From Octopus sinensis (lineage: Eukaryota): a stretch of 64,000 nucleotides of DNA. This document shows, one piece after another, positions 48,733 to 56,100 of the stretch; positions within the stretch are counted from its first letter, which is position 1; every line of letters starts with the position of its first letter. The stretch spans positions 48,484,001 to 48,548,000 of the forward strand of contig NC_043004.1 in assembly GCF_006345805.1 (NCBI RefSeq), read 5' to 3'. Made by a program: the position numbers.

Positions 48733-51700
48733 ATATATATATATGTGTGTGTGTGTGTATGTATTTGACGTATTGAGGTTATGTGAATATGAACTGAAAA
48801 ACTGTGTAAATAATATATATATATAGGATCGTTTGTAAAAAAAACATAAATCCGATGCTTCTGCACACTAAGATGCAGTACATATTAAAAATGGGGAAGG
48901 CCGGTTTTATGGGATTACTTAGGCTTCCCGTCCATTAAGGGTTTAGCTATATATGCTGTGTGAGTACCAGTTGTAATGAAACTTTGTATATGAGGAGTAA
49001 TGAAGGCTTGTATACATGGTATACTGAGGCTGTGTGTACGTAAGTGAAATGATGAGGTCGTATGGTGTATGTGGTGATACTGTGATGCTATGTGTAAAAG
49101 ATGAAGTGAGTCTGTGCTTATTTATATATGTGTGTATATATATATACATGGCATAGTGTGTACGTGGGAATTTGGTACTTAGTGAGGCCTAAGTGAGTAC
49201 GTGATACGATGGGATTCAGTCAAAAGTGGTGGTGTGGTTCTGTTGTTTAAATCTGTGGTTGTGTGTTGTGACTCCGTCCCAAGTTAACTCTGACTAAGCA
49301 AAACTATATATAATCAAAGGCACTCCAGTCGCGACCATCCTCTTCGTTTAGGGATATCTACGACTACTTTATTGAAATGTGTTCTTTTCTTTATTTAAGC
49401 TATTAGGTAGTCACTTTGATGGGTATTTGACTGCTGTTACTAAACAGGTCAAGTTGTACCAGATAGAGTCTCTAGTTGGCTCGTGTTTGCTGTACATATT
49501 ACTGAAGTGATTTGCCTATTGTGTATATTTCAGGGAGCAGGAATTCCCGATGGCATTTGGCTGCTATTTCTAACAAGATGAGCTACAGAGTATCGGTTTC
49601 CTCCTGACCCGTGCAAATGTGTATACATAGGCAGCGTTGTTTAACACTGGGTCAACCATGATCGAGTAAAACCAATGATCAAAAAGTACTCCAGTCGCAA
49701 CCATATATCCTTTTGTATACCCAATGCATGCCTTATTTTAGCATGGCAGAATGTGACCGAGGCAGGATTTGGGTCCTACTTTTTGCAAGTCGACTGACCG
49801 CCTAAAGCCTCTTTCGTTTGCTTGTGTGATGTCTGTATCGTGTTGTTTATAGCCCCAGGTAAGCATGTAACGAGGAGACCAATGATCAGAAAAAAAACAT
49901 TCCATTCACAACCACTCCATCTTTATTTTTTTGTTTCTCCAGACATAAATATACCTTGGACAACATTATTCAATGTCTGTTTTTTACTAATTTTCAACGC
50001 AGTGGGGAATAATTTAAGGTTGGTGTCTCATGGCTAATTCTGGCAAGTCGAGCCACCATATAATCTCCGGCTTACAAGCGAAGCTGTGTTTGTTATATGT
50101 ATGTAGTGTTGTGAAGCCGGCTGTATGTGTGTGTTTATACATGTGGTGTTATGAGACCGGTTGTAATGTATGTACATGCAATGTGACTGAGAGTGTGTAC
50201 ATGTGTGCGTATTGAGAAGTTTTATTTGTGGTGACCGTAAAGGACCGCTTCTTTTATAATTTCATTGTTGGGTGCCGCCACTAGCAAGAACAGCCAGGGT
50301 TTCCCCCCTCCAATTGCTAAGCAGCCGTTTGTTACCCCTTTTCTCTGGACATACAAAAACATCCATCAATAAATAAATCCCTTCAAATACTGAATACTGA
50401 CCCTCCAAACTGCAGCACTTTATTTAATCAACATGGAAATAATTAACTTGATTACAACCACCATAGCCCTGTTTGAAAAAAAAATACACACCTTTATATA
50501 CATAGGGGCATTCATTCATAGCGGAATGAGATTACCAACCACCAAACCAACGTGTATCATCCTGAGTCTAATGAACAACACCACAGTATATTACTGGTAC
50601 TTAACTTCGCTAACATATACACGTAGACGTAGAGGATTAAGAGTGAAGTTTCAAACCACAGCATTGAATTCAGAAATAAAACTCGTTTGGGTCTTTTTCA
50701 CTAAAGCTATAGGCTCGGTGGTGAGGTCTGCTCTCCATACAGGAACAAGAGATTTATATGGGATGGACAGATACAACGTTGTAAGTGTCGATGTCTTTCT
50801 TTTAGAGTTTATAATACCTATCATATGAAGTGAAACTGAACCGACAATCTCGGCTTAATTTCATTTCATTATATTAATGCAGTAAAATTATTTTTGATTA
50901 GACCCAAGGAACAGAGGGAATAGAATCAATTCTGGTTTGTATATTAGTACAAACTTTATAGATATGAAATAAGAATAAAAATGGTAGATGGTTAGAAAGA
51001 GTAAATAGGGTCAGATAGGGGCCCCCTGGAATCCTGAAAGAAAAGCTCACGATTCAATGTTGTATGTTAAAGTAACTTAAGACCCGGGCTATAAATTAAT
51101 GAATGAGGGGAAAGAATGGGTAGTAAATAAACAAATAAAGAAGTTAAGATCGTCAGGTGGTTCATTTTAGAAAGGTGAAGGAGGTTTAATTAAAAGAAAA
51201 ACCCTTGGCTACATGTGTGTTTTGTGTATTTACCCTAAATGCCGAGATCCTACCCTAGCTCCACAAACCTGCGAAACGAAGAGCTTCGGTCCCGGAGGAT
51301 ACATATAAACAAACGTGCTACATACAGACATGTCGAATACAACAACAATAACCATCATAACAATAACAACAAACAGCAAAGTGGAACAAGAAATTAAAGA
51401 CATCGAAACATGGAGCGAAGACATGAGAGAGAGGAGGGAGGGAGGACGAAAAGAGATCGAGGAGCGAGAGAGAGAGAGAGAGAAGAGGAGTGAGAGAGAG
51501 AAAGAAGAGGTAATGATGATGATAATAATAATAGTGGTGGCGGTGTGGTTGTAGTAGTACTTACTTTTCCCTAGCTTGAGCATCAGACGGCACTGTAGAG
51601 CCTTTCCCTTTGGCGTACATGCTTGTAGCTGAAGTGTCACGGCACCTGTCAAGCCATCAAGGACGACACTGACCCCGTTGCCTTGCCAACGTCAAGGAGA

Positions 51701-53177: not shown

Positions 53178-56100
53178 CGAGTGTATAGCTTCAGCATGCG
53201 GTTTTATACATACACACAGTAAGACTATAATATCTTTCTACATGTGTTGTAAATTCAAGTGTTTTGGGATGTATTTTATGTTGTTACTAATTATTAGTAT
53301 TTACGACAGATTTGGTGCAACTTTCTCCATATATACAGAGAGAGATGCTAACTGTTTAATTTCAGCCAGAACTGGTTGGATCAATGAAGAAAATTTAAAT
53401 AATAAAAGCTTTCAGCAGTTGACCTATATTTACAGAGACTCCACGGACTGAATAGAGGCGGGGTACCTTGAAACTGCTGGCTCTAGACGATTCCTATAAG
53501 AGAGGGAAGGGATGCCAACATGACTTGTAATTCACTACACTTACTATTTACTGGCCACGGGAAATCTGTCTCTCGCTTAATTCAACAGCAAATAAAATTA
53601 TTTACTAATATATATTGTATGTTTAATATATTTTGCATTACAGTAGTCGTTTTTAGCCCGGTGCTGCGACAGTTCTACAACCTAACCCACCTAGAAGGAA
53701 AAGGGGTTTCCCTAAGTCCGGTCCATTGTAGATCCATGAAGTGATGACGGCTGGTTCGATTTCCGAGGAAGAATTTCTGGCTTCAGCTCACAACTTCTTG
53801 AAAGTCTCCGCTGACAATGTCGACGTCTGGCAACTTCACAAAGTACCTGTAAGTGGAAAAAAAAAACCAACAAAAAATAACGTTATCTTTGTTTACGTTC
53901 AACATCCCCACATCCCCCAATCAAATGTATATATACCTAAAAATTGCGTATACTATAATATATATGTATATATATATGTATGTACATACAATAAATTTAA
54001 AATAAATGTATATAATAATAATATATGCATATAATCCTAAGTATATATATATATATCGTTATATATCTATGTAATGTACACACACGTGAAATAAAATATA
54101 TAGAAATGTAAAATAAACTTTATACATATAACTATACAAATGTATAGAAATTGTACGTGTGTATATATATATGTATATATATATATACATATATATACGT
54201 AACAAATATGTGTATCTATATAATATATATATATATTTATAAAAATGTAAAAATTAACGCAATATAAATATAAAAATGTTTATACATTATATATATATAT
54301 ATTTATACACAATATAAATATATGTATATTATACACAATATAAATATTAAAATGTTTATACATATATATATTCGCTTTTTATAATGAAATGGGTTGGACG
54401 GTCCATAGCAATTTTACACACTTCCTAAGAGCTACTGCTCCTAAATACTAGTGCTTGAACTTGTCATTTTGGGTCAGTTTCTGTGGCTGGATGCCCTTCC
54501 TATTGCCAACAAATTTACAACGTGCGCTGGGTACACTTCCCCATGACACTGGAGTACTCGGTAACCTTAAGGCGTGTAGATTGGGGAGAAGAAAAGGGAG
54601 AGGGAGCAATGACAGCAGAAAGGCCAGAAATGGTTAGTCAAGTAATATATCACCAGTATATATATACACACATATATATATATATACATACTTATATATA
54701 TGTATACATGTATATATACAATGTATGTATATATATGTATATATATATATTTATATATATATGTATATATATTTATGTATATGTATGTATATATATATAT
54801 GTATGTATGTATAAATATATGTATGTATGCATATATATATGTATGCATCCATATATGTATATATATATATGTATGTATATGTGTGTATATATATATATAT
54901 ATGTATATATTTATAATGTCTATATATGTGTGTGTGTTTATATATACATATATAAAATAATACATAATTATACTACTATTTATATGTAAATAAATGTGTG
55001 TGTATATATAATTCATAAGTCATACTACATATATATGTGAGTAAATATATATGTGTGTGTGTGTATATATATGCATTAATTTATTCTATACATAAGGCTG
55101 TGGTTATGGGGCATGTTTTCCAAGCCTATGGTTTCAGGTTCAATCTCACTACATGGCACCTTGGGCAAGCGTCTTCTACTTTAGTTCTGAGCAAACTGAT
55201 ACTGTGTGGGTGAATTTGGCAGACAGAAACTGTAAGGAAGCCTACTGTATACACACATGTACACGCACACACACATACATATAATGTATGTTGGGGGTGG
55301 GACATGTTTGTGTTGTGCATGTCCTACTCACCACTCGGCAACCAGTGTTGGTTTGTTTATATCCCTGTAACTTAGCAGCTCAGCATACTTCACACTATAT
55401 GTACTGGTGTCACTTTGTTCAACTAAACTCTTCAAAGCAGCACCCCAGCATGGCTGCACCCCAATGGATAAACAATACAAATATCATATAGGTGCAGACA
55501 TGTGTGTGTGGTTAAAAAGTTCACTTCACACCCATGTGGTATCAGGTTCTAACCCCCTACTCAGCATCTAGGGGGGTCTTTTACAATAATTATAGTCCAA
55601 CCAGTGCCATGAGTGAATTCAGGAGACAAAAACTATAAAAAGTTTGTTATATTTATATATAGGCACAGGCGTGGCTGTGTGATAAGAAGCTTGCTTCCCA
55701 GCCACAAGGTTCCAGGTTCAGTCCCATTGCATGGCACCTTGGGCAAGTGTCTTCTGCTATAATCTCGGGCCATCCAAAGCTTTGTGAGTGGATTTGGTAG
55801 ACGGAAACTGAAAGAAACCTGTCGTATATATCTATATTAACGTGTGTGTCTGTGTTTGTTCCCCCATCACCGTTTGACAAATGGTGTTTATGTCCCTGTA
55901 ACTTAGCGGTTCAGCAAAAGAGACCGAAAGAATAAGGCTTATGAAATAAGTCCTAAGGTCGATTTCTTCGACTAGAAAACCCTTCGTGGTTGTGCTCCAG
56001 CATGGCCACAATTAAATGATTGAAACAAGTAAAAGAATATATGTGTGTGTGTGCGCGCGTGTATATATATGTGTGTATGTGTGTGTGTGATAAACAAACT

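What the first reader, a model, noticed from the sequence alone, without database searches (positions are those of the whole stretch)
51565..53848. Head-to-head SSBP-ATG10 pair on a ~2.1-kb shared promoter: candidate ancient bilaterian microsynteny
Seen: the SSDP start codon (51620, minus) and a probable ATG10 start codon (53744, plus) diverge across a transposon-poor 2.1-kb interval in an otherwise repeat-saturated window. Known: human SSBP2 and ATG10 are divergently oriented neighbours on 5q14, but about 0.2 Mb apart. Inference: the linkage predates the protostome-deuterostome split and survived the extensive coleoid genome rearrangement. Here it is compact enough for a bidirectional promoter coupling an LDB1/LIM-complex developmental cofactor to autophagy.
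Basis: partly seen in the sequence, partly recalled or inferred. Interest (0 to 1): 0.72.

Follow-up and report, generated by a model that had tools for sequence, protein, structure and literature searches.

The report
Octopus SSBP and ATG10, head to head
Two unrelated octopus genes, a developmental cofactor (SSBP) and an autophagy enzyme (ATG10), really do start back to back about 2.1 kb apart, as their human counterparts do at a far larger distance, which makes this a probable but ordinary example of anciently conserved gene neighbourhood rather than proof of a shared promoter.

Summary
The minus-strand exon 51620..51565 is the first coding exon of the octopus SSBP/Ssdp gene. Three more SSBP exons follow on the same strand at 46292, 43122 and 36654. 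The plus-strand exon 53744..53848 is residues 1-35 of ATG10. It is 35/35 identical to the Octopus sinensis protein and 34/35 to O. bimaculoides. The start codons diverge across 2,123 bp.

Inheritance of the pair from the bilaterian ancestor is the most parsimonious reading. It rests on the human arrangement, which I recall rather than tested, plus weak literature support for mouse and pig. No animal genome collection was on hand, so adjacency in outgroups stayed unchecked.

Nothing in the sequence shows a shared bidirectional promoter:
- The gap has two promoter-proximal patches separated by about 1.4 kb of low-complexity DNA.
- There is no CpG island.
- The transcription start sites are unknown.

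The recalled 0.2 Mb separation in human argues that a common core promoter is not what keeps the genes together.

The gap is not unusually repeat-poor: 26.6% of equal-sized windows are as poor or poorer.

Conserved head-to-head pairs are a known class, with about 600 described (Irimia 2012). This is at most a new member.

The parts
51565..51620 (-). SSBP/Ssdp coding exon 1: start codon, 18 codons and 2 bases of a split Lys codon; GTAAGT donor at 51564-51559
   Evidence: tblastn with fish ssbp3a P0147 matches residues 1-19, 15/19 identical, E=1.1e-4.
46220..46292 (-). SSBP exon 2 ([24 protein letters not shown], LisH part of the N-terminal domain), flanked by a cag acceptor and a GTAAGT donor
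   Evidence: Pfam LisH E=0.014, below the curated cut-off. Matches PDB 6tyd_A SSBP2 residues 23-46, E=1.5e-10, and fly Ssdp 6s9r_A.
43061..43122 (-). SSBP exon 3 ([20 protein letters not shown] plus 2 bases)
   Evidence: Matches PDB 6tyd_A residues 47-66, E=1.1e-10.
36570..36654 (-). SSBP exon 4 (1 base plus [28 protein letters not shown])
   Evidence: Pfam SSDP profile positions 1-12, E=0.051, below cut-off. 983 database hits at E<=0.001; the named ones among the 120 listed are vertebrate SSBP3-type. tblastn with P0147 E=1e-17.
53744..53848 (+). ATG10 coding exon 1 (35 codons, phase 0; GTAAGT donor at 53849)
   Evidence: Aligns with ATG10 N-termini of 12 named animal references, with M1, F11, D27 and W29 invariant. 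No Pfam hit of its own.
51621..53743 (.). 2,123-bp interval between the two start codons. It must hold both 5' UTRs and both promoters. It contains no gene, no Pfam-matching ORF and no Rfam family.
51621..51829 (-). SSBP-proximal patch with balanced base composition (49% G+C): candidate 5' UTR and core promoter (inferred)
   Evidence: Upstream ATGs in it open only very short ORFs.
51806..51820 (.). Perfect palindrome TTGGC-N5-GCCAA, 186-200 bp upstream of the SSBP ATG. The pattern is the NFI consensus as I recall it. It overlaps two of the three CCAAT pentamers clustered in 51722-51821.
   Evidence: It is the only match in the window; 0.04 expected, and 4 of 100 shuffles gave at least one. CCAAT positions. 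Found post hoc; function not tested.
51830..52420 (+). G-poor (5% G) C/T-rich low-complexity tract that separates the two proximal patches
   Evidence: GC skew is -0.376 for 52001-53000.
53057..53176 (.). (AT)n microsatellite inside the gap
53191..53743 (+). ATG10-proximal patch (37% G+C): candidate promoter and 5' UTR (inferred). A possible 3' splice site (ttttgcattacag) ends at 53643, so the coding exon may not be the first exon.
   Evidence: read directly from the sequence, no transcript data
53736..53744 (+). Two-codon upstream ORF ATG-AAG-TGA whose stop overlaps the ATG10 start codon (TGATG)
53849..64000 (+). ATG10 intron 1, at least 10,152 bp and running off the window. It is rich in SINE-like repeats and transposon fragments.
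   Evidence: tblastn with three full-length octopus ATG10 proteins finds only exon 1 in the window. Repeats.

Best explanation
This is a genuine divergent (5'-5') pair of two unrelated single-copy genes in an octopus of the O. sinensis/vulgaris lineage. One is SSBP/Ssdp, the LDB/Chip-binding cofactor, on the minus strand. The other is ATG10, the E2-like enzyme that conjugates ATG12 to ATG5, on the plus strand. Their start codons lie 2,123 bp apart.

Shown: the exon identities, the orientation, the spacing and the internal make-up of the gap.

Inferred, step 1: each gene has its own proximal promoter in the roughly 200-bp and 550-bp compositionally normal patches next to its start codon. These are separated by about 1.4 kb of G-poor, A/T-rich and microsatellite sequence.

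Inferred, step 2: the adjacency is inherited from the bilaterian ancestor, because human SSBP2 and ATG10 are recalled to be neighbours in the same orientation. That would make it one more conserved ancestral microsyntenic pair.

Inferred, step 3: if selection keeps the pair together, the likelier cause is long-range regulatory entanglement of the genomic-regulatory-block type. In that model SSBP is the tightly regulated developmental gene and ATG10 is a long-intron bystander lying in SSBP's upstream regulatory landscape. A shared core promoter is the less likely cause.
For: Exon identities:
- ATG10 exon 1 is 35/35 identical to O. sinensis and 34/35 to O. bimaculoides.
- Its N-terminus aligns with 12 named animal ATG10 proteins.
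- SSBP exons 1-4 lie in order on the minus strand with canonical splice sites.
- They match fish ssbp3a residues 1-19 and the contiguous residues 23-46 and 47-66 of PDB SSBP2 and fly Ssdp. Exon 4 gives 983 hits at E<=0.001; the named ones listed are SSBP3-type.

Separate proximal patches:
- Composition by segment.
- No CpG island. The gap's 300-bp windows hold 2-12 CpG, against a window-wide 95th percentile of 10.
- A unique TTGGC-N5-GCCAA palindrome and a CCAAT cluster lie only on the SSBP side.

Linkage in mammals:
- Ssbp2, Atg10, Xrcc4 and Msh3 lie in one mouse chr13 QTL (passages).

Known class:
- Irimia 2012 (passages) reports 593 bilaterian conserved pairs, 54.8% of them 5'-5' in human against 26.7% of controls. 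It explains them by coregulation or by regulatory blocks, and reports that bystander genes have more and longer introns.
- ATG10 intron 1 here exceeds 10.1 kb for a 204-aa protein.
- Touceda-Suarez 2020 (passages) reports that after the vertebrate genome duplications most ancient blocks survive next to only one paralogue. That fits ATG10 lying beside SSBP2 only; the paralogue assignment is recalled.
Against: - No outgroup genome was examined, so ancestry of the linkage rests on two lineages, and the human arrangement comes from memory.
- No transcript, TSS, chromatin or conservation data exist here, so the two 'separate promoters' are only a reading of base composition.
- Long introns are general in this octopus locus. 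SSBP introns 1-3 are 5.3, 3.1 and 6.4 kb, and intron 4 exceeds 36 kb. ATG10's long intron is therefore weak evidence for bystander status.
- The head-to-head orientation and short distance are also what the coregulation class predicts.
- Whether SSBP counts as a 'trans-dev' gene under Irimia's GO-based definition was not checked.
Confidence: 0.55

Rival explanations
1. The 2.1-kb interval is a single bidirectional promoter that co-regulates SSBP and ATG10, and this shared control is what has held the pair together since the bilaterian ancestor.
For: - The pair is 5'-5' oriented over a short distance.
- Irimia 2012 finds 5'-5' pairs enriched among conserved pairs and attributes many to coregulation, with HSPE1-HSPD1 sharing a promoter of under 1 kb (passages).
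- The true TSS spacing must be smaller than 2,123 bp by the length of both 5' UTRs.
- A possible 3' splice site at 53643 would allow an ATG10 leader exon closer to SSBP.
Against: - ATG to ATG is more than twice the usual 1-kb criterion (the criterion is recalled).
- The centre of the gap is about 1.4 kb of G-poor, A/T-rich and microsatellite sequence.
- There is no CpG island.
- Candidate factor motifs cluster on the SSBP side only.
- The one 23-nt similarity between the two proximal patches (78% identical, shared exact 10-mer) is at chance level for 2.4 kb (the estimate is mine).
- In human the genes are recalled to be about 0.2 Mb apart, so a common core promoter cannot be the constraint there.
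Confidence: 0.15
2. The linkage is ancestral but kept by nothing. The pair simply has not been broken, helped by the small target the short intergenic gap offers in invertebrates, and there is no functional coupling.
For: - No shared element could be shown in the gap.
- The two proteins have no known functional link (my knowledge).
- Coleoids still retain hundreds of ancient blocks (275 in Euprymna; passage), so survival of one pair is not exceptional.
Against: - Irimia 2012 argues that conserved pairs as a class exceed neutral expectation and carry regulatory signatures (abstract and passages).
- In human the recalled 0.2-Mb gap has offered a large target for breakage for a long time without a break.
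Confidence: 0.25
3. The adjacency arose independently in cephalopods and vertebrates (convergence or chance), so it is not bilaterian microsynteny.
For: - No outgroup was examined here.
- Coleoid genomes were heavily reshuffled and gained many new neighbourhoods (passages).
Against: By my estimate the chance is about 6/20,000 that the neighbour of octopus SSBP is the orthologue of a gene flanking one of the three human SSBP paralogues. The chance is lower still with the same 5'-5' orientation.
Confidence: 0.04
4. The plus-strand exon is not used as the ATG10 first exon in this species (a dead or alternative exon), so the compact head-to-head geometry is an annotation illusion.
For: - The O. 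vulgaris model CAI9726587.1 (P0243) starts with a different 13-residue N-terminus.
- No transcript data were available.
Against: - The exon is intact, with a start codon and a consensus GTAAGT donor at exactly the residue 35/36 boundary of the reference proteins.
- It is 35/35 identical to the O. sinensis RefSeq model and 34/35 to O. bimaculoides.
- It carries the residues invariant across animal ATG10 N-termini.
- The alternative O. vulgaris N-terminus was not found anywhere in the window.
Confidence: 0.02

Closest known systems
Human SSBP2-ATG10 locus at 5q14 (arrangement recalled; mouse and pig linkage seen in passages)
   Same: The same two orthologous genes, neighbours in divergent 5'-5' orientation. 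ATG10 lies beside only one SSBP paralogue.
   Different: The distance is about 0.2 Mb in human (recalled) against 2.1 kb between start codons here.
Conserved ancestral microsyntenic pairs of the coregulated class, e.g. HSPE1-HSPD1 (Irimia et al. 2012, PMC3514665, passages)
   Same: Unrelated genes, 5'-5' orientation, short intergenic distance in this genome.
   Different: HSPE1-HSPD1 share a documented promoter of under 1 kb, are strongly co-expressed and work in the same pathway. Here the spacing is over 2 kb between ATGs, no shared element is visible, the functions are unrelated and expression is unknown.
Genomic regulatory blocks: a developmental gene plus a bystander, e.g. Isl-Scaper (Irimia et al. 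2012; Touceda-Suarez et al. 2020, PMC7530604)
   Same: A dosage-sensitive developmental cofactor sits next to a small housekeeping gene with long introns. Linkage is kept next to a single paralogue after the vertebrate duplications.
   Different: No conserved non-coding elements or enhancers in ATG10 introns were shown. SSBP is a cofactor, not a DNA-binding transcription factor, and its 'trans-dev' status under the papers' definition was not checked.

Membership tests
SSBP/SSDP family (N-terminal LisH/LUFS domain plus proline-rich SSDP region, Pfam PF04503) | Conserved N-terminal domain sequence | tested here: met
   Exons 2 and 3 match residues 23-46 and 47-66 of SSBP2 (6tyd_A) and fly Ssdp (6s9r_A) at E about 1e-10. 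Exon 1 matches fish ssbp3a residues 1-19.
SSBP/SSDP family (N-terminal LisH/LUFS domain plus proline-rich SSDP region, Pfam PF04503) | Proline-rich SSDP region (PF04503) above the curated cut-off | tested here: inconclusive
   Only profile positions 1-12 fall in exon 4 (14.1 bits against a cut-off of 27). No later exons were found in 1..36569; they probably lie outside the window.
ATG10 (E2-like enzyme, Pfam PF03987 Autophagy_act_C) | Identity with the N-terminus of annotated ATG10 proteins | tested here: met
   35/35 to O. sinensis XP_029640321.1 and 34/35 to O. bimaculoides XP_014777851.1. Aligned with 12 named animal ATG10 proteins.
ATG10 (E2-like enzyme, Pfam PF03987 Autophagy_act_C) | Catalytic domain with the H-P-C active-site cysteine | not testable with these tools
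   The domain is not in the window: only exon 1 is found, and the exon alone has no Pfam hit. The domain and H-P-C columns are present in the reference proteins.
Bidirectional promoter pair | Divergent orientation of two non-overlapping genes | tested here: met
Bidirectional promoter pair | Transcription start sites less than about 1 kb apart (criterion recalled; 'under 1 Kbp' for HSPE1-HSPD1) | not testable with these tools
   Start codons are 2,123 bp apart. TSSs are unknown and no transcript data were available.
Bidirectional promoter pair | A shared promoter element or CpG-rich core spanning the interval | tested here: not met
   There is no CpG island. The centre of the gap is low-complexity DNA. 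Motifs lie on one side only. This feature is typical of mammals and may not apply to molluscs.
Bidirectional promoter pair | Correlated expression of the two genes | not testable with these tools
   No expression data.
Conserved ancestral microsyntenic pair (Irimia 2012) | Two non-paralogous genes adjacent with no intervening gene in this genome | tested here: met
   no ORF with a family match and no RNA family in the gap.
Conserved ancestral microsyntenic pair (Irimia 2012) | Orthologues adjacent in several distant phyla | not testable with these tools
   No animal genome collection was on hand. Human adjacency is recalled, and mouse and pig co-location comes from passages. No paper in the library links SSBP2, ATG10 and synteny. 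The papers' supplementary pair lists could not be opened.
Genomic regulatory block | Bystander gene with long introns | tested here: inconclusive
   ATG10 intron 1 exceeds 10,152 bp, but SSBP introns in the window are also 3-36 kb or more, so this does not discriminate.
Genomic regulatory block | Conserved non-coding elements or enhancers for the developmental gene inside the bystander | not testable with these tools
   No second cephalopod genome and no chromatin data were available.

The most novel reading that the evidence does not exclude
The compact octopus arrangement preserves the ancestral state of a bilaterian, perhaps metazoan, SSBP-ATG10 pair. In this reading one short bidirectional regulatory region co-drives an LDB/LIM and Wnt-enhanceosome cofactor and a core autophagy enzyme, and vertebrates later stretched this unit to 0.2 Mb without breaking it.
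Probability: 0.12. Interest if true: 0.5.

Novelty: new member of a known kind. Interest (0 to 1): 0.28.

Why it matters
If outgroups confirm it, SSBP-ATG10 would be one more gene pair held together for over 500 million years. It would be a compact invertebrate version in which to test what holds such pairs together, because a 2.1-kb fragment can be assayed directly. It would also suggest that non-coding variation in and around human ATG10 could act on SSBP2. It does not open a new kind of biology. Conserved 5'-5' pairs and regulatory blocks are well described, and the pair may already sit in published supplementary lists that I could not open.

Tried and rejected
- Pfam on the 35-aa ATG10 exon: 0 families. 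The Pfam domain lies in later exons.
I listed ORFs instead and saw no ATG10 exon 2. tblastn confirmed this.
- Composition search for proline/glycine-rich SSBP exons downstream of exon 4: nothing convincing. tblastn with fish ssbp3a found none either.
The ATG10 list was obtained (120 of 131 shown). The SSBP search with exon 4 (120 of 983 shown) returned almost only unnamed short fragments and a few vertebrate SSBP3 entries, and it was the last allowed search. The unnamed hits could be of human origin, so I did not use them.
- A profile search of the 50%-identity representative library was considered and not run. SSBP is so conserved that most animals would probably collapse into one representative, and that library carries no names.
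- Rfam: nothing at gathering scores in the window. At E<=1 there were only far sub-threshold microRNA-family matches on the (AT)n hairpins, which I judged to be chance.
- tRNA scan: none.
- ORFs inside the gap: no Pfam family.
- A 23-nt similarity between the two promoter-proximal patches (D11): rejected as chance.
- Literature: no paper holds SSBP2, ATG10 and synteny together. There are 19 papers with both gene names (18 listed), none on gene order evolution judging by titles and abstract starts. Microsynteny combined with ssbp, ssdp or atg10 gave nothing relevant among the 25 of 82 listed.
- No search was made with a joined multi-exon model.

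
Full report
**What is in the sequence**

On the minus strand an ATG at 51620 opens MYAKGKGSTVPSDAQARE. Two bases of a split codon follow, ending at 51565, and are directly followed by GTAAGT.

On the plus strand an ATG at 53744 opens 35 codons (MTAGSISEEEFLASAHNFLKVSADNVDVWQLHKVP). These end at 53848 and are directly followed by GTAAGT.

The interval between the two start codons, 51621..53743, is 2,123 bp. The window has no N.

**Identity of the plus-strand exon**

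The 35-aa peptide has no Pfam hit of its own. The word-indexed protein search needs 40 residues. I therefore sent the 40-aa in-frame stretch 53732-53851.

- That search returned one hit: ATG10 isoform X2 of Octopus bimaculoides, 204 aa, carrying PF03987. It matches 34/35 over residues 1-35.
- Its 90% cluster also holds the O. sinensis protein XP_029640321.1. That protein is 35/35 identical to the window exon. The window therefore comes from the O. sinensis/vulgaris lineage.
- The exon ends exactly at the residue 35/36 junction of these proteins.
- Aligned with 12 named ATG10 proteins from molluscs, an annelid, echinoderms, a hemichordate, a cnidarian and two fishes, it keeps the four invariant N-terminal columns M1, F11, D27 and W29.
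- tblastn with three full-length octopus ATG10 proteins and a fourth octopus model with a different N-terminus finds only exon 1 in the window. Intron 1 therefore exceeds 10,152 bp, and the catalytic domain lies outside the window.

**Identity of the minus-strand gene**

Motif search on the translated window found three further exons on the minus strand, in order and with canonical cag/GTAAGT boundaries and compatible phases:

| Exon | Coordinates | Tool support |
|---|---|---|
| 1 | 51620..51565 | fish ssbp3a (P0147) residues 1-19, E=1.1e-4 |
| 2 | 46292..46220 | SSBP2 (6tyd_A) residues 23-46 and fly Ssdp (6s9r_A), E about 1e-10; LisH E=0.014, below cut-off |
| 3 | 43122..43061 | SSBP2 (6tyd_A) residues 47-66, E about 1e-10 |
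| 4 | 36654..36570 | 983 database hits, named ones among the 120 listed all vertebrate SSBP3-type; first 12 positions of Pfam SSDP at sub-threshold score |

No further exon was found in 1..36569.

**The gap**

By segment:

| Segment | Character |
|---|---|
| 51621-51829 | compositionally balanced, 49% G+C |
| 51830-52420 | G-poor, C/T-rich; 5% G against 17% in the window |
| 52561-53050 | A/T-rich with poly(A) and poly(T) runs |
| 53057-53176 | (AT)n microsatellite |
| 53191-53743 | 37% G+C |

- There is no CpG island. 300-bp windows in the gap hold 2-12 CpG, against a window-wide 95th percentile of 10.
- The gap's ORFs match no Pfam family.
- No Rfam family reaches its gathering score anywhere in the window. 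The weak microRNA-family matches lie on the AT repeat.
- On the SSBP side there is one perfect TTGGC-N5-GCCAA palindrome at 51806-51820. It is the only one in the window; 0.04 are expected, and 4 of 100 shuffles gave at least one. The pattern is the NFI consensus as I recall it.
- Three CCAAT pentamers fall within 51722-51821, against 85 in the whole window. These motifs were found post hoc and are leads only.
- On the ATG10 side a two-codon upstream ORF (ATG AAG TGA, 53736-53744) overlaps the start codon. A possible 3' splice site ends at 53643. The coding exon may therefore be preceded by a non-coding leader exon.

**The repeat contrast**

Tandem repeats plus dust-filtered intra-window repeats cover 24.4% of the window and 7% of the gap. 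However, 26.6% of equal-sized sliding windows are as poor or poorer. An unfiltered self-comparison gives 28.6% against 7.6%. The gap holds no copy of the window's SINE-like family, but it is not exceptional. No transposon library was available.

**Is the linkage ancient?**

The tools offer no animal genome collection, so adjacency in outgroups could not be examined.

I tried to test linkage indirectly through the contig lengths that the protein index reports. I obtained them for ATG10 of many species. The one remaining search for SSBP was swamped by unnamed fragments. I did not use those, because such hits could be of human origin.

The case for ancestry rests on these points:

1. The octopus adjacency shown here.
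2. The human arrangement, SSBP2 and ATG10 as divergent neighbours about 0.2 Mb apart.
3. Indirect literature support. Ssbp2, Atg10, Xrcc4 and Msh3 lie within one mouse chr13 QTL (PMC10317118, passages). [quoted passage not shown]
4. A simple estimate of mine. The chance that octopus SSBP's neighbour is the orthologue of a gene flanking one of three human paralogues is about 6 in 20,000.

On that basis I rate ancestral linkage as likely, about 0.8, but untested.

The library holds no paper that treats this pair as synteny.

**How it most likely works**

Irimia 2012 (PMC3514665, abstract and passages) describes 593 bilaterian conserved pairs. Of these, 54.8% are 5'-5' in human against 26.7% of controls. 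The paper offers two explanations:

- shared regulation, for example a bidirectional promoter of under 1 kb at HSPE1-HSPD1;
- regulatory blocks, in which a bystander gene with many long introns carries enhancers of a neighbouring developmental gene.

I think the second, or no constraint at all, is more likely, for three reasons:

- The two proximal patches are separated by about 1.4 kb of low-complexity DNA.
- No shared element is visible.
- A core promoter cannot be shared across the recalled 0.2 Mb in human, yet the linkage persists there.

The retention of ATG10 next to only one of three vertebrate SSBP paralogues (recalled) fits the pattern reported for ancient blocks (PMC7530604, passages).

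None of this is shown for this locus. TSS positions, co-expression and intronic enhancers all remain to be measured.

'Survived the coleoid rearrangement' is also not remarkable. Squid retain 275 metazoan microsyntenies against 216 in scallop (PMC9023564, passage).

**Verdict**

- The gene calls are right.
- Ancient linkage is probable but unverified.
- A coupling bidirectional promoter is unsupported.
- The phenomenon belongs to a well-described class, so interest is modest.

Noticed in passing
window 34001-36000: About 2 kb of extremely A/T-rich tandem repeat (G+C 8%, fully covered by intra-window repeat hits) inside SSBP intron 4.
   Followed up: no
window 55118-58324 and 63150-63546, also 5808-6108 and 18587-18966: A SINE-like interspersed repeat family of about 400-440 bp. 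Copies are 77-89% identical and are clustered in ATG10 intron 1. ARAGORN finds no tRNA in the window.
   Followed up: partly
window 37001-37400 and 39101-39500: These are the CpG-richest patches of the window (18-23 and 14-18 CpG per 300 bp, o/e 1.5-1.8), in SSBP intron 3. The stretch 37061-37213 is 85% identical to 63849-63998, so the first patch at least overlaps a repeated element. The second patch is unexplained.
   Followed up: partly
window 63600-63821 (-): An ORF fragment with a C2H2 zinc finger matches Pfam Zn_SUZ12 at 31.6 bits, above its cut-off of 28 (E=1.4e-7). It lies in ATG10 intron 1 next to a microsatellite. My guess is that it is transposon-derived; this was not tested.
   Followed up: no
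window 57876-58127 (+) and 58569-58724 (+): Decayed transposon fragments: a Mos1/mariner-type HTH (E=9e-4) and an endonuclease-reverse-transcriptase piece (E=0.07). Both are below the curated cut-offs.
   Followed up: no
window 53736-53746: The two-codon upstream ORF ATG-AAG-TGA has its stop overlapping the ATG10 start (TGATG). A longer 74-codon ORF from 53520 ends at the same stop. Whether either is transcribed is unknown.
   Followed up: no
protein P0243 (O. vulgaris CAI9726587.1): The O. vulgaris ATG10 model starts with a different 13-residue N-terminus and lacks the exon found here. That alternative start is not in the window, so it may be a mis-annotated or alternative first exon. O. bimaculoides isoform X1 carries an extra 10 residues between exons 1 and 2.
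   Followed up: partly
whole window: The pentamer CCAAT occurs 85 times against 186.5 +/- 12.4 in dinucleotide-preserving shuffles. This is unexplained and may be a side effect of the large microsatellite fraction.
   Followed up: no
protein P0043 (Solemya velum ScPMuIL_014652): A 345-aa model combines the ATG10 domain with a BAF domain (PF02961). It is probably a fusion of two neighbouring genes in that annotation.
   Followed up: no
protein P0147 (Astyanax ssbp3a, UniRef): This fish model lacks the equivalent of exon 3. It appears to read into intron sequence after exon 2, and the window's own intron translation aligned with it for a few residues. It is probably a mis-spliced model.
   Followed up: no
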